NCBI RefSeq assembly: GCF_003334385.1
Contig: NZ_QOWN01000008.1
Length of the DNA: 64,000 bases
From: Escherichia coli
GTDB taxonomy: Bacteria > Pseudomonadota > Gammaproteobacteria > Enterobacterales > Enterobacteriaceae
Strand: one strand, 5' to 3'
The first letter of the stretch is position 1. Every line of letters begins with the position of its first letter. The position numbers and the translations under genes are program-made. The notes under the pieces were generated by a model. The model did no database searches, had not been told where the DNA came from, and worked only from the letters and a program-made list of their open reading frames with translations. This document shows positions 52,540 to 58,069 of this stretch, piece by piece.

Positions 52540-53222
52540 AGGTCAGCCCTCTTCACACCCACGGAGTAGCGGCGCTCAAGGAACAGCAGCACACCATTGG
52601 AAACAGTGGTGAAAACCAGGTAAATCACGCCACAGACGATGGCGAAATAGAACGGTTCCCAGGTACTTTTGCCTGCCAGTTGGGTGGCTTTGACCACATC
52701 TTCCAGGCCGAGTAACGAAACCAGTGCGGTAGATTTGAGGATCACCTGCCAGTTGTTGCCAATGCCTGGCAGGGCGTAACGCATCATCGACGGAAACATG
52801 ATCCGCCGAAACACTTGCCCACGAGTAAAACCGAACGCCGTCGCCGCCTCTATATGTCCTTTCGGCACTGCCATAAAAGCACCACGGAACGTTTCGGTAA
52901 AATAAGCACCGTAGATAAAACCGAGAGTGATAATACCAGCGACCATCGGATCGATATCAATCTGCCCGACGCCCATCGCCTCCGTCACCGTGTTTAGCGC
53001 AATCTGCAAACCGTAGAAAATCAGCAGCATCAACACTAAGTCCGGCACGCCACGAATCAGCGTGGTGTACCCTTCGAAAATCAGCCCCGAAAGCCGATTT
53101 TGCGAGAGCTTACCGCCAGCGCCAATTAAACCGATGATTACAGCGAGCACTACAGAGCTGATAGCCAGCTCCAGCGTGACGAGCGCACCCTGTAAAATAA
53201 CACCTGAAAACCCATACAACAT
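52536..53222 (-). CDS. hisQ: ABC transporter permease HisQ (228 aa)
   Basis: Membrane permease directly downstream of hisJ. Confidence 0.93.
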   Translation of the reverse strand: MLYGFSGVILQGALVTLELAISSVVLAVIIGLIGAGGKLSQNRLSGLIFEGYTTLIRGVPDLVLMLLIFYGLQIALNTVTEAMGVGQIDIDPMVAGIITLGFIYGAYFTETFRGAFMAVPKGHIEAATAFGFTRGQVFRRIMFPSMMRYALPGIGNNWQVILKSTALVSLLGLEDVVKATQLAGKSTWEPFYFAIVCGVIYLVFTTVSNGVLLFLERRYSVGVKRADL

Positions 53223-53311
53223 GCTGCCTGTCCTGTCGTGTGTGGTGAATTACCGCCTCTTGTCTCCCTCCGGTTACCCGAAGGGAGCGGGCTTTCTTTC
53301 ACCGATGGCGA

Positions 53312-54094
53312 TTAGCCACCATAAACATCAAAATCGAAGTACTTTTTCGCTAATTTCTCGTAAGTACCGTCAGCGCGCATTTCGGCAAAGGCTTTGTTCA
53401 GTGCTTCGCGCAGTTCGTTATCTTCTTTACGCAGGCCCATGCCGGTCCCTACGCCAAACAGTTTTTCATCTTTAACAGACGGGCCACCGAATTTGTAATC
53501 TTTACCGACAGGTTGTTTGAGGAAACCTTCGCTGGCAGCGACCTCATCCTGGAACGCGGCATCAATACGTCCGGCAGTCAGGTCAGAATAAATGTTGTCC
53601 TGCCCCTGATACGAGACGATTTCAATGCCTTTTGGTGCCCAATGTTCATTACCGAACGTCTCCTGGGTGGTGCCCTGCAATACGCCTACCCGTTTGCCTT
53701 TCAGCGACTCGACTGTCGGCTGAATGTCAGAATTTTTCGCCACCACCAAACGAGAATCGGCAGCGTACAGTTTGTCGGTGAAGGCTATTTCTTGCTGACG
53801 TTTTTCCGTAATGGAAAGCGATGACATGATGGCGTCAATCTTCTTCGCTTTTAAGGACGGGATTAACGCATCCAGCGGATTTTCGACAAACGTACATTGC
53901 GTATTGATGCGTTTGCATAATTCCTTTGCCAGATCGATATCGAAGCCAACCAGTTCGCCTTGTGAATTTTTTGATTCAAATGGCGCATAGGTCGGGTCGG
54001 TACCGATGCGGATGTTTTGCGGAATCGCAGCAAACGCCGCAGTTGCGCTGGAGAAGGCCAGAACCAGAGAGAGCGATAGCACCAGTTTTTTCAT
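53312..54094 (-). CDS. hisJ: Histidine-binding periplasmic protein (260 aa)
   Basis: Signal peptide [22 protein letters not shown]; paralogous to the adjacent argT product. Confidence 0.93.
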
Positions 54095-54239
54095 AATGTC
54101 CTCAACTGACAGTCTTTTTATAGGGAATATTTACAGGTTTGTTACACTTATCGTGCCATAAAATTGACCATCAAGGCAAAATATCCCGCCCCGTTAGACG
54201 TATTATTTTTCATTAAAAATGCTTAAGTATGCATTTCAA

Positions 54240-54256
54240 TGCACCACGATAGTGCA
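54240..54256. promoter_or_regulatory. NtrC-like palindrome between argT and hisJ
   Basis: TGCACC-acgat-aGTGCA matches the NtrC consensus TGCACC-N5-GGTGCA at 11 of 12 positions; a second partial copy (tggcgtgcacc) lies about 10 bp downstream. Confidence 0.35.
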
Positions 54257-54314
54257 ACAAACCTGGCGTGCACCATGATGATCATTCCATCAGGTACAGC
54301 TTCCCAGCGACGTA

Positions 54315-55097
54315 TCAGTCACCGTAGACATTAAAGTCGAAATACTTTTTCGCCATCTTGTCGTAGGTGCCGTCCTGACGCAGCTCGCCAAGCGCCTTAT
54401 TGAAGGCAGCCGTCAGTTCAGCATCATCTTTACGTAGCCCTACACCGGTGCCATCACCGAAGTATTTTTTGTCTTTTACTGATGAGCCAGCAAAGGCGAA
54501 ATCTTTACCAGCAGGTTGCTTGAGGAATCCTTCGCTGGCAGCAACTTCATCTTGTAACGCAGCATCCAGACGTCCTGCAGCCAGATCGGAATAGACCAAA
54601 TCCTGGTTGGCATAGGCCACCACATCCACGCCTTTACTACGCCAGGTCTCGTTAGCGTAAGCTTCCTGGGTTGATCCCTGCAGCACACCAACATGTTTAC
54701 CTTTCAGTGAATCCAGCGTTGGCTGAATCGGTGAACCTTTGGCCGCAATCAAACGAGAATCTGCGGCGTACAGCTTGTCGGAGAAGGCAATCTCCTGCTG
54801 ACGTTTATCGGTAATGGAAAGCGACGAAATAATAGCGTCGATTTTTTTCGCTTTCAGTGAGGGGATCAGCGCGTCAAAGTCACTGGCAACCCAGGTACAT
54901 TTCACCTGCATCCGTTTGCACATCTCGTTACCGAGATCGATATCAAAGCCAACAAAATCACCTTTAGCATCTTTCGATGAGAACGGTGCGTAGGTGGTAT
55001 CGGTTCCGATACGTACCGTCTCCGGTAGCGCCGCATAGCTGGAAGCCGCTGTGGAGAGACCGACTAACAAAGACAGAGCGAGAATCGACTTCTTCAT
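54315..55097 (-). CDS. argT: Lysine/arginine/ornithine-binding periplasmic protein (260 aa)
   Basis: Signal peptide [22 protein letters not shown]; paralog of hisJ, upstream of hisJQMP. Confidence 0.93.
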
Positions 55098-55165
55098 ACA
55101 TAACCCTCAAGTGAAAATGGCTTTTTTATGTTGTGTATTGTGTTGTGTGTTTGCAGGCTCTTTCA

Positions 55166-55181
55166 TGCAGGTCTTATGCCA
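55166..55181 (-). promoter_or_regulatory. Sigma54-type -24/-12 element upstream of argT
   Basis: Minus-strand reading TGGCAT-aagac-CTGCA has GG-N10-GC spacing like the consensus TGGCAC-N5-TTGCA; about 70 nt upstream of the argT ATG. Confidence 0.4.
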
Positions 55182-55327
55182 TCTTGACGACAACAGTAAC
55201 ATTCAACGTTAAATATGTTAATAAGACGTTGCATTATTGTCCTGAAGTTGAAGATAGCAGGTATAGCGGTTGAATCGCAGCGTTTCGATTGAATGGCAGA
55301 AACAAAATGTCGAGGATTTGATCGCGG

Positions 55328-55356
55328 TTGCAAAATTGCCCTGAAACAGGGCAACA
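55328..55356 (-). terminator. Rho-independent terminator after ubiX (end of cvpA-purF-ubiX)
   Basis: Perfect palindrome TTGCCCTG-aaa-CAGGGCAA; followed on the minus strand by TTTTG. Confidence 0.6.
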
Positions 55357-55362
55357 GCGGAG

Positions 55363-55932
55363 TTATGCGCCCTGCCAGCGGGCAAAGAGATCTTCAGGAA
55401 GGGTTATCGCAAACTGGTCAAGAACACGATTAACCGTCTGATTTATCACATCATCAAGGGATTGCGGGCGATGATAAAACGCCGGAACGGGAGGCATAAT
55501 CACCGCACCGATTTCTGCCGCCTGAGTCATTAAACGCAGATGGCCTAAGTGCAATGGTGTTTCACGCACGCAGAGCACCAACGGGCGACGCTCTTTCAGC
55601 ACCACATCTGCCGCACGGGTCAGTAAGCCATCAGTATAGCTATGGACAATGCCGGAAAGGGTTTTGATTGAACAGGGTAAAATCACCATCCCCAGCGTCT
55701 GGAAAGAACCGGAAGAGATGCTGGCGGCAATATCGCGCGCATCGTGCGTGACATCGGCTAATGCCTGCACTTCGCGCAGAGAAAAATCCGTTTCGAGGGA
55801 TAAGGTCTGGCGCGCTGCCTGGCTCATCACCAGATGCGTTTCGATATCTGTGACATCGCGCAGAACCTGTAATAAGCGCACGCCATAAATCGCGCCGCTG
55901 GCACCGCTGATGCCTACAATGAGTCGTTTCAT
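55363..55932 (-). CDS. ubiX: Flavin prenyltransferase UbiX (189 aa)
   Basis: MKRLIVGISGASGAIYGVRLLQVLRD... Confidence 0.95.
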   Translation of the reverse strand: MKRLIVGISGASGAIYGVRLLQVLRDVTDIETHLVMSQAARQTLSLETDFSLREVQALADVTHDARDIAASISSGSFQTLGMVILPCSIKTLSGIVHSYTDGLLTRAADVVLKERRPLVLCVRETPLHLGHLRLMTQAAEIGAVIMPPVPAFYHRPQSLDDVINQTVNRVLDQFAITLPEDLFARWQGA

Positions 55933-57580: not shown

Positions 57581-58069
57581 TTACGCTCTGGGCAAGAAAC
57601 TTGACGAGCTTTGCAGATAATCAAAAAACCATCTGATGATAAAACTGAATTGCGGGATCAGCTGTGATTTGCTCCAGTCTTCGCTTTTCGACACCCCGGT
57701 AAAGGAGTCGAGAAAGAAGAGAATGGCAGCAACAATCAACACACCGCGCAACGCACCGAAACAGACGCCCAGCACCCGATCGGTGCCTGACAACCCCGTT
57801 TTCTCCACCAACTGGCCTATCACGAAGTTCACGATAGCACCAACGATCAGGGTAGCGATAAACAGTACCGCGATGGCAATCCCATTTCGAACCAGTTCGT
57901 CTTCAAAGCCCGTAAACCAGACTGACAGGTAAGTGTAGTAATGACTGGCAACAAAGAAAGCACAACCCCATGTCACCAGCGATAACGCTTCACGAACAAA
58001 GCCGCGGATCAGGCTAACCAGAGAGGAAAAAGCAATCACCGCGATTATGGCGTAATCAATCCAGACCAT
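57581..58069 (-). CDS. cvpA: Colicin V production protein CvpA (162 aa)
   Basis: MVWIDYAIIAVIAFSSLVSLIRGFVREALSLVTWG...; membrane protein upstream of purF. Confidence 0.93.
   Translation of the reverse strand: MVWIDYAIIAVIAFSSLVSLIRGFVREALSLVTWGCAFFVASHYYTYLSVWFTGFEDELVRNGIAIAVLFIATLIVGAIVNFVIGQLVEKTGLSGTDRVLGVCFGALRGVLIVAAILFFLDSFTGVSKSEDWSKSQLIPQFSFIIRWFFDYLQSSSSFLPRA

What the first reader, a model, noticed from the sequence alone, without database searches (positions are those of the whole stretch)
54240..54274. NtrC-type palindrome in the argT-hisJ spacer
TGCACC-acgat-aGTGCA (11 of 12 matches to TGCACC-N5-GGTGCA) followed by a partial second copy lies about 150 bp upstream of hisJ. This could be an enhancer for nitrogen control of hisJQMP, positioned oddly within the 3' region of argT. 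A nearby ARG-box-like sequence (tatgcatttcaatgcac, around 54228-54244) was too degenerate to call.
Basis: partly seen in the sequence, partly recalled or inferred. Interest (0 to 1): 0.3.

Follow-up and report, generated by a model that had tools for sequence, protein, structure and literature searches.

The report
Known NtrC binding site upstream of hisJ
The palindrome is a real, evolutionarily conserved binding site for the nitrogen regulator NtrC in front of the E. coli histidine-transport operon, and NtrC binding there was already published, so the finding is correct but ordinary; which promoter the site acts on in E. coli is still unclear.

Summary
The window is E. coli K-12 MG1655. The sequence TGCACCACGATAGTGCA (54240-54256) matches the NtrC consensus at 11 of 12 positions. 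A conserved half-site lies 30 bp away (54270-54286). Both sit in the argT-hisJ intergenic spacer, 146-192 nt upstream of the hisJ ATG and after the argT stop, not inside argT.

A published NtrC ChIP-seq peak assigned to hisJQMP (23.7-fold) maps onto both sites. In 80 Enterobacteriaceae loci the half-sites are conserved at quantised distances from a TGGCAC motif. So the site is genuine and already known.

How it works in E. coli is less clear:
- The downstream sigma54-like motif (TGGCAC-N5-GTGTA) has GT instead of GC at -12 and scores below real promoters.
- No sigma54 ChIP-seq peak is reported there, and its Salmonella counterpart is flagged as inactive.
- The mapped hisJ start (54143) fits a sigma70 promoter (TTGCCT-N18-TGgCACGAT) that overlaps this motif.
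- A predicted ArgR operator (54235-54197) lies between the NtrC sites and that promoter.

Most relatives keep a canonical -12 GC, and some have fully canonical sigma54 promoters. The ancestral role was probably a sigma54 enhancer for hisJ.

Side finding: an Escherichia-specific 21-bp inverted repeat pairs the NtrC site region with the promoter region.

The parts
54240..54256 (.). Proximal NtrC-type palindrome. Reads TGCACCACGATAGTGCA on the + strand and TGCACTATCGTGGTGCA on the hisJ coding strand. Its centre, 54248, is -105 from the mapped hisJ TSS.
   Evidence: 11 of 12 match to the consensus. The GGTGCA half is invariant in a 20-genus alignment. It lies inside the NtrC ChIP-seq peak at 54225-54305.
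54270..54286 (.). Distal NtrC half-site. Reads ATGATCATCATGGTGCA on the coding strand: perfect GGTGCA half, degenerate other half. Its centre, 54278, is 30 bp from the proximal centre.
   Evidence: GGTGCA is conserved across genera at this slot. It also forms the 3' arm of the hairpin after argT.
54197..54235 (-). Predicted ArgR operator: two 18-bp ARG boxes separated by 3 bp (AATGCATACTTAAGCATT ttt AATGAAAAATAATACGTC).
   Evidence: Best ARG-box pair in the spacer, 24 of 32, in the top 5e-5 of all pairs in the window. It ends exactly 17 bp before the -35 hexamer, as reported for Caldara 2007 in PMC6640053. ArgR ChIP-exo binding at the hisJ promoter is published. The TGCATAnTTAAGC block is conserved.
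54174..54179 (-). -35 hexamer TTGCCT of the sigma70 hisJ promoter.
   Evidence: Correct spacing (18 bp) to the -10 and to the mapped TSS. The TTTGCC block is invariant across genera.
54150..54158 (-). Extended -10 TGgCACGAT of the sigma70 hisJ promoter. The same bases form the -24 element TGGCAC of the sigma54-like motif.
   Evidence: The TSS at 54143 lies 7 nt downstream. An ALE substitution at 54155-54156 (GC to AA on the + strand, so TGGCAC becomes TGTTAC) was selected for higher histidine uptake.
54141..54158 (-). Sigma54-like -24/-12 motif TGGCACGATAAGTGTAAC, with GT instead of GC at -12. The predicted sigma54 start is 54132.
   Evidence: 11.3 bits against at least 16.2 for real promoters. 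The homologous motif is present in 75 sequences, 58 of them with GC at -12. No sigma54 ChIP-seq peak. The Salmonella homologue is flagged as not active.
54143..54143 (-). Mapped hisJ transcription start (5' UTR of 49 nt).
   Evidence: Kim et al. 2012, supplementary file 2: NC_000913.2 2424859, 22 reads, with the upstream sequence printed. Mapped with the 1978-nt offset verified.
54266..54300 (-). RNA hairpin directly after the argT stop (UGUACC/GGUGCA plus UGAUGG/UCAUCA).
   Evidence: MFE structure. In Citrobacter the homologous stretch is a near-perfect 30-bp palindrome (L007).
54245..54265 (-). 5' arm of an Escherichia-specific long-range inverted repeat (CAGGTTTGTTGCACTATCGTG). Overlaps the left half and spacer of the NtrC palindrome.
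54134..54155 (-). 3' arm of the long-range inverted repeat (CACGATAAGTGTAACAAACCTG). Overlaps the -10 / sigma54-like motif and the TSS.
53312..54094 (-). hisJ, first gene of hisJQMP.
54315..55097 (-). argT, the upstream paralogue, with its own sigma54 promoter.
55164..55181 (-). argT sigma54 promoter TGGCATAAGACCTGCATG.
   Evidence: 16.2 bits. Sigma54 ChIP-seq site OS22 has its motif centre at 2425890, which is window 55174.

Best explanation
The palindrome and the half-site 30 bp upstream of it are a genuine tandem NtrC (NRI, GlnG) binding site. Together they form the upstream activating sequence of the hisJQMP control region.

Proposed mechanism: under nitrogen limitation, phosphorylated NtrC oligomerises on the two sites. 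By DNA looping it contacts sigma54-RNA polymerase bound at the -24/-12-type element 54158-54141, about 100 bp downstream. That element overlaps the housekeeping sigma70 hisJ promoter. This would add nitrogen-dependent initiation of hisJQMP to the ArgR-repressible sigma70 transcription that starts at 54143.

What is shown: the site itself, its conservation, in vivo NtrC occupancy, the sigma70 start, and nitrogen induction of the operon. What is inferred: that the sigma54-like element is the target. This is well supported as the ancestral and family-wide arrangement. In E. coli K-12 the -12 element has decayed (GC to GT), so activation there may be weak or lost.
For: - Sequence match: 11 of 12 to the consensus, plus a second half-site one enhancer-spacing away.
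- In vivo binding: the NtrC ChIP-seq peak for hisJQMP at 23.7-fold (8th of 21 peaks) maps to 54225-54305 and covers both sites. Brown et al. report RNAP at the promoter regions of all 21 units, and upregulation on nitrogen run-out. The coordinate mapping was verified independently.
- Conservation: 74 of the 75 sequences that carry the TGGCAY motif (74 related loci plus the window) have at least one NtrC-type site within 200 bp upstream of it. Distances cluster at about 96, 118 and 148 bp, steps of two and three helical turns. The Escherichia-specific loss of about 21 bp keeps the phase.
- Selection on the -24 element: G3 and C4 of TGGCAC are invariant in 75 of 75 sequences, although C4 to T improves the sigma70 -10 (an ALE mutation that includes this change was selected). 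Constraint from sigma54 explains this better. 58 of 75 keep GC at -12.
- Canonical relatives: several genera carry fully canonical sigma54 promoters upstream of hisJ with NtrC sites about 100-130 bp further up, for example TGGCATAAAACCTGCA in L034, and also L064, L037 and L050.
- Geometry: -116 and -146 from the predicted sigma54 start resembles glnAp2, with sites near -108 and -140 (established knowledge, not tested here).
Against: - Genome-wide sigma54 ChIP-seq in E. coli lists argT but no site upstream of hisJ.
- gSELEX with RpoN holoenzyme, with or without NtrC, lists a peak only upstream of argT in this locus, none in the argT-hisJ spacer.
- The E. coli motif scores 11.3 bits against 16.2-23.4 for real promoters. 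Six sequences elsewhere in the window score as well or better.
- The -12 dinucleotide is GT in E. coli and E. albertii and AC in a divergent Escherichia lineage.
[quoted passage not shown] I could not read that paper.
- The only mapped hisJ start (54143) is 11 nt upstream of the expected sigma54 start (54132) and fits a sigma70 extended -10 promoter. I did not check that study's growth conditions; the published ArgR work describes sigma70 transcription of hisJQMP in exponentially growing cells.
- Nitrogen induction of hisJQMP could come from read-through from the argT sigma54 promoter. Several papers treat argT-hisJQMP as one operon.
Confidence: 0.5

Rival explanations
1. NtrC binds here but acts on the sigma70 hisJ promoter rather than on a sigma54 promoter. 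The NtrC oligomer sits 4 bp from the ArgR operator and could displace or counteract ArgR, or change local DNA topology. That would relieve arginine repression of hisJQMP when nitrogen is scarce.
For: - The palindrome ends at 54240 and the best ARG-box pair starts at 54235. The second-best pair (54245-54207) overlaps the palindrome.
- ArgR repression of PhisJ is reported to work through DNA conformation rather than steric exclusion.
- The only mapped start is sigma70-type, and there is no sigma54 ChIP signal.
- NtrC half-sites are kept in Escherichia although the -12 element has decayed in two different ways.
Against: - From established knowledge, NtrC is known only as an activator of sigma54 holoenzyme or as a steric repressor when it overlaps a core promoter. 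Here it is centred at -105 and -135.
- No experiment links NtrC and ArgR at this promoter.
- Family-wide conservation of the sigma54-type motif is not explained by this reading.
Confidence: 0.17
2. The spacer sites are a remote, downstream enhancer for the argT sigma54 promoter about 0.93 kb away. Nitrogen control of hisJQMP would then come from read-through of argT transcripts.
For: - No NtrC-type site with up to 3 mismatches lies within 300 bp upstream of E. coli argT. None with up to 2 mismatches is found in Salmonella or Citrobacter. Many other genera have one about 200 bp upstream of the argT promoter.
- The NtrC ChIP signal at the argT promoter is weak (5.4-fold, added by eye), whereas the spacer peak is 23.7-fold.
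- From established knowledge, NtrC sites can work at kilobase distances and from either side.
- I found no convincing intrinsic terminator in the spacer.
Against: - An argTp-lacZ fusion moved to the lac locus still responds to raised NtrC~P by 2.4-fold, against 3.2-fold for the native gene. The fragment is described only as the 'promoter region' and its boundaries are not given.
- Genera that have their own NtrC site upstream of argT keep the spacer sites too, with fixed phasing to the hisJ promoter motif.
Confidence: 0.12
3. In E. coli the site is a vestige. NtrC still binds, but with no regulatory consequence now that the sigma54 promoter has decayed.
For: - Degenerate -12 element, low PSSM score, no sigma54 ChIP peak.
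- The distal site is only a half-site, and it is weakened in E. albertii to GGGGCA.
Against: - Both GGTGCA halves and the TGCAC half are kept in a lineage only 84% identical over this region, where neighbouring bases have changed freely.
- NtrC occupancy is as high as at astC or ddpX.
Confidence: 0.13
4. The palindrome is not a protein site. It is part of an RNA or DNA secondary structure: the argT terminator or the long-range helix.
For: - The spacer RNA folds with a z-score of -7.2.
- The distal half-site is one arm of the hairpin after argT.
- The left half of the palindrome lies in a 21-bp long-range stem.
Against: - The long-range stem is found only in Escherichia, whereas the half-sites are conserved family-wide.
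- RNAalifold finds no covariation across genera. There is no Rfam match.
- ChIP-seq shows NtrC on this DNA.
Confidence: 0.03

Closest known systems
E. coli glnA control region (NtrC sites 1 and 2 upstream of glnAp2, overlapping the sigma70 promoter glnAp1)
   Same: - Two NtrC dyads about three helical turns apart, roughly 105-145 bp upstream of the start.
- A sigma70 and a sigma54-type promoter coexist in one control region.
- The consensus is the same, TGCACC-N5-GGTGCA.
   Different: - At glnA both dyads are strong and the sigma54 promoter is canonical and bound by sigma54 in vivo.
- Here the distal site is a half-site, the -12 element is GT, no sigma54 ChIP signal is reported, and the sigma70 promoter overlaps the sigma54-like element instead of the NtrC sites.
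- The glnA geometry is from established knowledge, not tested here.
Salmonella typhimurium dhuA (hisJ promoter) and argTr region, studied by Ames and co-workers
   Same: It is the orthologous locus, with the same gene order. It has an NtrC palindrome about 118 bp upstream of TGGCACGATAG(T/C)CGCA. In the Salmonella subspecies examined here the palindrome is perfect or near-perfect: TGCACCATTTTGGTGCA in L021.
   Different: - Salmonella keeps GC at -12 and about 21 bp that Escherichia lacks.
- The Salmonella hisJ -24/-12 sequence is recorded as predicted but probably inactive.
- I could not read the primary papers. Whether the footprinted NtrC site of 1985 is this one is unverified.
glmY / glmZ promoters (fully overlapping sigma70 and sigma54 promoters)
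   Same: One stretch of DNA can be read both as a sigma54 -24/-12 element and as a sigma70 promoter, so the two holoenzymes would compete (described).
   Different: At glmY sigma54 binding is among the strongest in the genome, and the activator is GlrR, not NtrC. For hisJ only the sigma70 start is documented.
ArgR operators of artJ, artP and hisJ (paired ARG boxes)
   Same: Two 18-bp ARG boxes 3 bp apart between the NtrC site and the promoter. ArgR binding in vivo and in vitro is published.
   Different: The hisJ operator does not overlap the core promoter. The exact coordinates given here are my prediction.

Membership tests
NtrC (NRI/GlnG) binding site | 17-bp dyad matching TGCACC-N5-GGTGCA | tested here: met
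   11 of 12 at 54240-54256. It is the only hit with at most 1 mismatch in the window.
NtrC (NRI/GlnG) binding site | Occupied by NtrC in vivo or in vitro | tested here: met
   Taken from the literature, not tested by me. The NtrC ChIP-seq peak 2424941-2425021 (NC_000913.2) is window 54225-54305, at 23.7-fold. In tension with this, the in vitro gSELEX study lists no peak in the argT-hisJ spacer, although the authors say it recovered only 7 RegulonDB-listed targets.
NtrC (NRI/GlnG) binding site | Conserved at the orthologous position in related genomes | tested here: met
   The GGTGCA half is invariant in alignments of 17-20 genera. 74 of 75 sequences have a site at quantised spacing. It is also kept in a divergent Escherichia lineage.
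NtrC-dependent enhancer (UAS) of a sigma54 promoter | At least two NtrC sites on the same helix face, allowing oligomerisation | tested here: inconclusive
   The second site is centred 30 bp away, but only its GGTGCA half matches. Other genera have two or three fuller sites.
NtrC-dependent enhancer (UAS) of a sigma54 promoter | A functional -24 GG / -12 GC promoter about 100-150 bp downstream | tested here: not met
   In E. coli K-12 TGGCAC is present but -12 is GT. The motif scores 11.3 bits against at least 16.2. There is no sigma54 ChIP-seq peak. The mapped TSS at 54143 is 11 nt from the expected sigma54 start. In most other genera this feature is met by sequence: 58 of 75 have GC at -12 and some motifs are canonical.
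NtrC-dependent enhancer (UAS) of a sigma54 promoter | NtrC- and RpoN-dependent transcription of the downstream operon from that promoter | not testable with these tools
   Brown et al. list hisJQMP as a known member of the NtrC regulon on the basis of gene-expression analysis and report it upregulated on nitrogen run-out. This cannot be separated from read-through from the argT promoter.
ArgR operator | Two 18-bp ARG boxes (WNTGAATWWWWATTCANW) separated by 3 bp | tested here: met
54235-54197 scores 12+12 of 32, in the top 5e-5 of pairs in the window.
ArgR operator | ArgR binding and arginine repression of the promoter | not testable with these tools
   Published elsewhere: Caldara 2007 as summarised in PMC6640053, and ChIP-exo.
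Sigma70 promoter (extended -10 type) | -35 and -10 elements at correct spacing upstream of a mapped start | tested here: met
   TTGCCT-N18-TGgCACGAT with the TSS 7 nt downstream at 54143. Adaptive mutations fall in these elements. RpoD holoenzyme binds the spacer in vitro.

The most novel reading that the evidence does not exclude
In the Escherichia lineage the ancestral sigma54 promoter of hisJ has decayed but the NtrC sites are kept. They have also become part of a lineage-specific 21-bp long-range helix that pairs the enhancer (54265-54245) with the promoter and start region (54155-54134).

If this helix is functional, NtrC binding at this site could have a role beyond the one known for it. 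The helix could act as an RNase III or processing signal in argT-hisJ read-through RNA, or as a DNA-level feature that couples NtrC binding to the sigma70 promoter and its ArgR repression.
Probability: 0.1. Interest if true: 0.55.

Novelty: already known. Interest (0 to 1): 0.22.

Why it matters
It confirms that the first-stage reader can pick out a real regulatory site from raw sequence. Biologically it adds little, because NtrC binding upstream of hisJQMP and Ntr control of the operon are already published.

What stays open is how nitrogen control reaches hisJQMP in E. coli. NtrC occupancy is strong, but the only candidate sigma54 promoter is degenerate, is not seen bound by sigma54, and overlaps the sigma70 promoter that is actually used. 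Resolving this would show one of three things: that a decayed enhancer-promoter pair is still functional, that NtrC has been re-used (for example against ArgR), or that binding is a fossil. That is a small but clean case study in regulatory turnover between E. coli and its relatives.

Tried and rejected
- **Chance match.** Rejected. The motif alone is not significant per window, but conservation and ChIP-seq settle it.
- **Known RNA family.** No Rfam hit in 53200-55400, even at E-value up to 1.
- **Conserved RNA structure across genera.** RNAalifold gives no covariation. The long-range stem is found only in Escherichia.
- **Canonical terminator for argT in the spacer.** The scan found only a weak 5-bp candidate at 54200-54187. 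The hairpin at 54300-54266 lacks an adjacent U-run.
- **Species where argT is not next to hisJ.** Looking at these would have separated 'serves hisJ' from 'serves argT'. All 77 loci with enough flank have an argT-like gene upstream (76 full-length and one partial, L024), so the test could not be made.
- **Primary papers.** Zimmer 2000, Reitzer & Schneider 2001, Caldara 2007 and Ames & Nikaido 1985 are not held. Searches for 'dhuA' and 'argTr' gave nothing useful.
- **Klebsiella hisJ TSS in the Kim 2012 supplement.** Not present in the stored text.
- **Supplement of Brown 2014.** Figure legends only.
- **Other sigma70 assignments I tried by eye.** These were GTAACA-N17-TATAAA and TTGCCT with TATGGC. 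I dropped them once the mapped TSS and the '17 bp' statement both fitted TTGCCT-N18-CACGAT.
- **TTGAAA-16-TTTAAT (54239-54212).** Shimada 2014 list this as the promoter. It is only a best-match assignment inside a gSELEX peak and does not fit the mapped start.

Full report
**Where the window comes from.** The window is E. coli K-12 MG1655, NC_000913.3 positions 2372695-2436694; a 3-kb stretch of that record matches exactly. All genes around the finding are on the minus strand: hisP, hisM, hisQ, hisJ (53312-54094), argT (54315-55097), ubiX and purF. The finding lies in the 220-nt argT-hisJ spacer, 54095-54314.

**Checking the observation.** TGCACCACGATAGTGCA occupies 54240-54256 and matches TGCACC-N5-GGTGCA at 11 of 12 positions. 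A second TGCACC at 54270-54275 is the perfect half of a 17-mer (54270-54286) whose other half is degenerate. It lies 58 nt beyond the argT stop, so 'within the 3' region of argT' is wrong. The match is the only one in 64 kb with at most one mismatch. However, 0.25 such matches are expected by chance and 24 of 100 shuffles contain one, so the motif alone proves nothing.

**Published binding data.** Brown et al. 2014 (PMC4066584) mapped NtrC by ChIP-seq in nitrogen-starved E. coli. They list a peak 'hisJQMP' at NC_000913.2 2424941-2425021 with 23.7-fold enrichment, the eighth strongest of 21 and comparable to astC and ddpX.
- The offset between the two genome versions here is 1978 nt. Two data points confirm it. 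Kim et al. 2012 give hisJ as 2424028-2424810, against 2426006-2426788 in the current record. The sigma54 motif centre that Bonocora et al. report for argT (2425890) lands exactly on the argT -24/-12 motif in the window.
- With this offset the NtrC peak is window 54225-54305 and contains both sites.
- The peak at the argT promoter itself was weak (5.4-fold) and was added by eye.
- Brown et al. also report RNAP at the promoter regions of all 21 units, and their upregulation on nitrogen run-out.
- NtrC occupancy of this spacer and Ntr control of hisJQMP are therefore already in the literature.
- In tension with this, an in vitro gSELEX study lists a peak only upstream of argT in this locus, none in the argT-hisJ spacer.

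**Comparative evidence.** A protein-guided scan of one genome per species returned 80 Enterobacteriaceae loci with hisJ. All those with enough flank have an argT-like gene directly upstream.
- Nearly every locus has NtrC-type dyads upstream of hisJ, and a TGGCAC/T-N5-nnGC motif about 64-72 nt before the ATG.
- In alignments of 17-20 genera, the invariant or nearly invariant blocks in an otherwise variable spacer are the GGTGCA half of the proximal dyad, the distal GGTGCA, a TGCATAnTTAAGC block, a TTTGCC block, TGGCAC, and the ribosome-binding site.
- 75 sequences carry the TGGCAY motif (74 related loci plus the window itself), and 74 of them have at least one NtrC-type site within 200 bp upstream of it. 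Distances cluster at about 96, 118 and 148 bp, steps of two and three helical turns.
- E. coli and E. albertii lack about 21 bp that other genera have between the dyad and the TGCATA block. This moves the E. coli dyad from the 118-bp slot to the 98-bp slot without changing helical phase.
- Within Escherichia, a lineage only 84% identical over this region keeps TGCACT, both GGTGCA halves and TGGCAC, while neighbouring bases differ.
- The site is under purifying selection.

**What lies downstream.** On the coding strand, TGGCACGATAAGTGTA (54158-54143) resembles a sigma54 promoter but has GT in place of the -12 GC.
- I built a scoring matrix from 24 of the Salmonella sigma54 promoters listed by Samuels et al. 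2013. With it the E. coli motif scores 11.3 bits. Real promoters score 16.2-23.4, and six unrelated sequences in the window score at least 11.3.
- Bonocora et al. 2015 list sigma54 ChIP-seq sites at argT and elsewhere, but none at hisJ.
[quoted passage not shown] They cite Ames & Nikaido 1985, which I could not obtain.
- Kim et al. 2012 mapped the hisJ start at 2424859, which is window 54143. That is 11 nt upstream of the start expected for a sigma54 promoter: using Bonocora's rule of motif centre minus 19, the expected start is 54132.
- The mapped start is exactly right for a sigma70 promoter with -35 TTGCCT (54179-54174), an 18-bp spacer and an extended -10 TGgCACGAT (54158-54150).

**This fits the published ArgR work.** hisJQMP is transcribed from a sigma70 promoter and weakly repressed by ArgR, whose two ARG boxes end 17 bp upstream of the -35 element (Caldara 2007 as summarised in PMC6640053).
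- The best-scoring ARG-box pair in the spacer is 54235-54197. It scores 24 of 32, in the top 5e-5 of pairs in the window, and it ends exactly 17 bp before TTGCCT.
- ArgR binding at this promoter in vivo is also published.

**Adaptive mutations.** These were selected for higher histidine uptake in histidine auxotrophs (PMC6415869), and they fall in the same elements:
- a 2-bp change at 54155-54156 that turns TGGCAC into TGTTAC, destroying the -24 GG and improving the sigma70 -10;
- a +AATT insertion after 54165 that alters the promoter spacing;
- a recurrent substitution of the T at 54180, next to the -35, to any other base. I cannot explain this last one.

**Weighing the mechanism.** For the family as a whole, the sigma54-enhancer reading is well supported.
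- G3 and C4 of TGGCAC are invariant in 75 of 75 sequences, although position 3 is free in an extended -10 and C4 to T would strengthen the sigma70 promoter.
- 58 of 75 sequences keep GC at -12.
- Dryocola, Buttiauxella, Shimwellia and an Enterobacter species carry fully canonical sigma54 promoters (TGGCATAAAACCTGCA and similar) upstream of hisJ, with NtrC dyads about 100-130 bp further upstream.

For E. coli K-12 itself, the sigma54 element is degenerate and no sigma54 binding or sigma54-type start has been seen. I therefore put about 0.9 on 'genuine NtrC site' but only about 0.5 on 'acts as a sigma54 enhancer for hisJ in E. coli'.

**Rivals:**
- **NtrC modulates the sigma70 promoter or counteracts the adjacent ArgR operator (0.17).** This is attractive because only 4 bp separate the two sites, but there is no precedent.
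- **The sites are a remote enhancer for the argT sigma54 promoter (0.12).** E. coli, Salmonella and Citrobacter lack any recognisable NtrC site within 300 bp upstream of argT, whereas other genera have one. However, an argTp-lacZ fusion at the lac locus still responds to NtrC~P levels, and genera with their own site upstream of argT keep the spacer sites too.
- **Vestigial binding (0.13).**
- **A purely structural RNA or DNA element (0.03).** The conservation pattern contradicts this.

**Side observation.** The E. coli spacer RNA folds far better than shuffled controls (-84.7 kcal/mol, z = -7.2).
- Most of this comes from a 21-bp long-range stem between 54265-54245 and 54155-54134. The first arm overlaps the left half of the palindrome. 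The second overlaps the -10 / sigma54-like motif and the start site.
- The stem is present in E. albertii and other Escherichia. In the divergent lineage it persists with different, partly compensatory bases (CAGGTT/AACCTG becomes CAGATT/AATCTG, and the stem is extended outward).
- It is absent from Salmonella, Citrobacter, Klebsiella, Enterobacter and Kluyvera.
- The same lineage carries the decayed -12 element and the 21-bp loss.
- The 5' arm lies upstream of the sigma70 start, so the stem could form only in RNA that reads through from argT. Its function, if any, is unknown.

**Verdict.** The feature is already known, and interest is low apart from the unresolved question of what NtrC does here in E. 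coli.

Noticed in passing
window 54245-54265 and 54134-54155 (minus strand): A 21-bp long-range inverted repeat (15 + 6 bp, one G.U pair and one bulge) pairs the NtrC palindrome region with the hisJ -10/TSS region. The spacer RNA has z = -7.2. The repeat is present only in Escherichia, including E. albertii. It persists with partly compensatory changes in a divergent lineage (L082).
   Followed up: partly
window 54266-54300 (minus strand): A hairpin lies directly after the argT stop, and its 3' arm is the distal GGTGCA half-site. In Citrobacter sp. (L007) the homologous stretch is a near-perfect 30-bp palindrome, TGCACCGTTTTGGTTAACCAAAACGGTGCA. It has no adjacent U-run, so it is not a canonical terminator.
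   Followed up: partly
window 54180 (-86 from the hisJ ATG): This T lies immediately 5' of the -35 hexamer and is the first base of the invariant TTTGCC block. It was replaced by each of the three other bases in independent adaptive-evolution lineages of histidine auxotrophs (PMC6415869). A benefit from any substitution suggests loss of some element. The T is also the last base of a -10-like GATATT and closes a weak hairpin. Unexplained.
   Followed up: partly
window 54150-54158 and 54165: Two other adaptive mutations hit the promoter. GC to AA (+ strand) at 54155-54156 turns TGGCAC into TGTTAC. A +AATT insertion after 54165 changes the spacing between the -35-like and -10 elements. Both are consistent with sigma70 promoter-up changes, and the first destroys the sigma54 -24 GG.
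   Followed up: partly
window 55098-55400 and loci L028-L081 upstream of argT: The argT sigma54 promoter (55181-55164) is conserved in all loci. However, Escherichia, Salmonella and Citrobacter have no recognisable NtrC dyad within 300 bp upstream. Enterobacter, Buttiauxella, Cedecea, Klebsiella pneumoniae and others have one about 285 nt before the argT ATG.
   Followed up: partly
window 55243 (minus strand): Kim et al. 2012 list the argT TSS at NC_000913.2 2425959, 146 nt upstream of the ATG, with 303 reads. That is well upstream of the sigma54 promoter, whose predicted start is about 58 nt upstream. It implies an additional promoter for argT that is not sigma54-type.
   Followed up: no
window 54212-54239 (minus strand): TTGAAA-16-TTTAAT is a 10 of 12 match to a sigma70 promoter. 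It abuts the NtrC palindrome and overlaps the predicted ARG boxes. Shimada et al. 2014 list it as the 'constitutive' hisJQMP promoter under an RpoD gSELEX peak. No mapped start supports it.
   Followed up: partly
loci L034, L064, L037, L050 (upstream of hisJ): Dryocola, an Enterobacter sp., Buttiauxella and Shimwellia have a different, fully canonical sigma54 promoter upstream of hisJ (TGGCATAAAACCTGCA, TGGCATGAAACCTGCA, TGGCATAGAACATGCA). It closely resembles the argT promoter, which suggests promoter exchange between the paralogues.
   Followed up: no
loci L051, L052, L055, L059 (Cedecea and relatives): These loci keep an NtrC dyad close to hisJ, starting 107-109 nt before the ATG in L051, L052 and L055 and 82 nt before it in L059. 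They have no TGGCAY motif at all. The promoter used there is not evident.
   Followed up: no
loci L021, L015 (positions about 1387-1436): In Salmonella and Citrobacter a 17-19-bp local inverted repeat (for example TAAACCGGCTGACAAGG / CCTTGTCGGCCTGATTA) brackets a good -10-like TAGAAT and the TTTG of the conserved block. E. coli has only a weaker version.
   Followed up: no
window 53223-53311 (hisJ-hisQ spacer): A GC-rich hairpin-forming sequence lies between hisJ and hisQ (CTCCCTTCGGGTAACCGGAGGGAG on the coding strand). From memory, this region resembles the intercistronic REP-type element described in the Salmonella histidine transport operon. Not examined.
   Followed up: no
window 57771-57787: This is the only other match to the NtrC consensus with at most 2 mismatches (AGCACCCGATCGGTGCC). 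It lies inside cvpA and is consistent with chance (3.85 expected).
   Followed up: no
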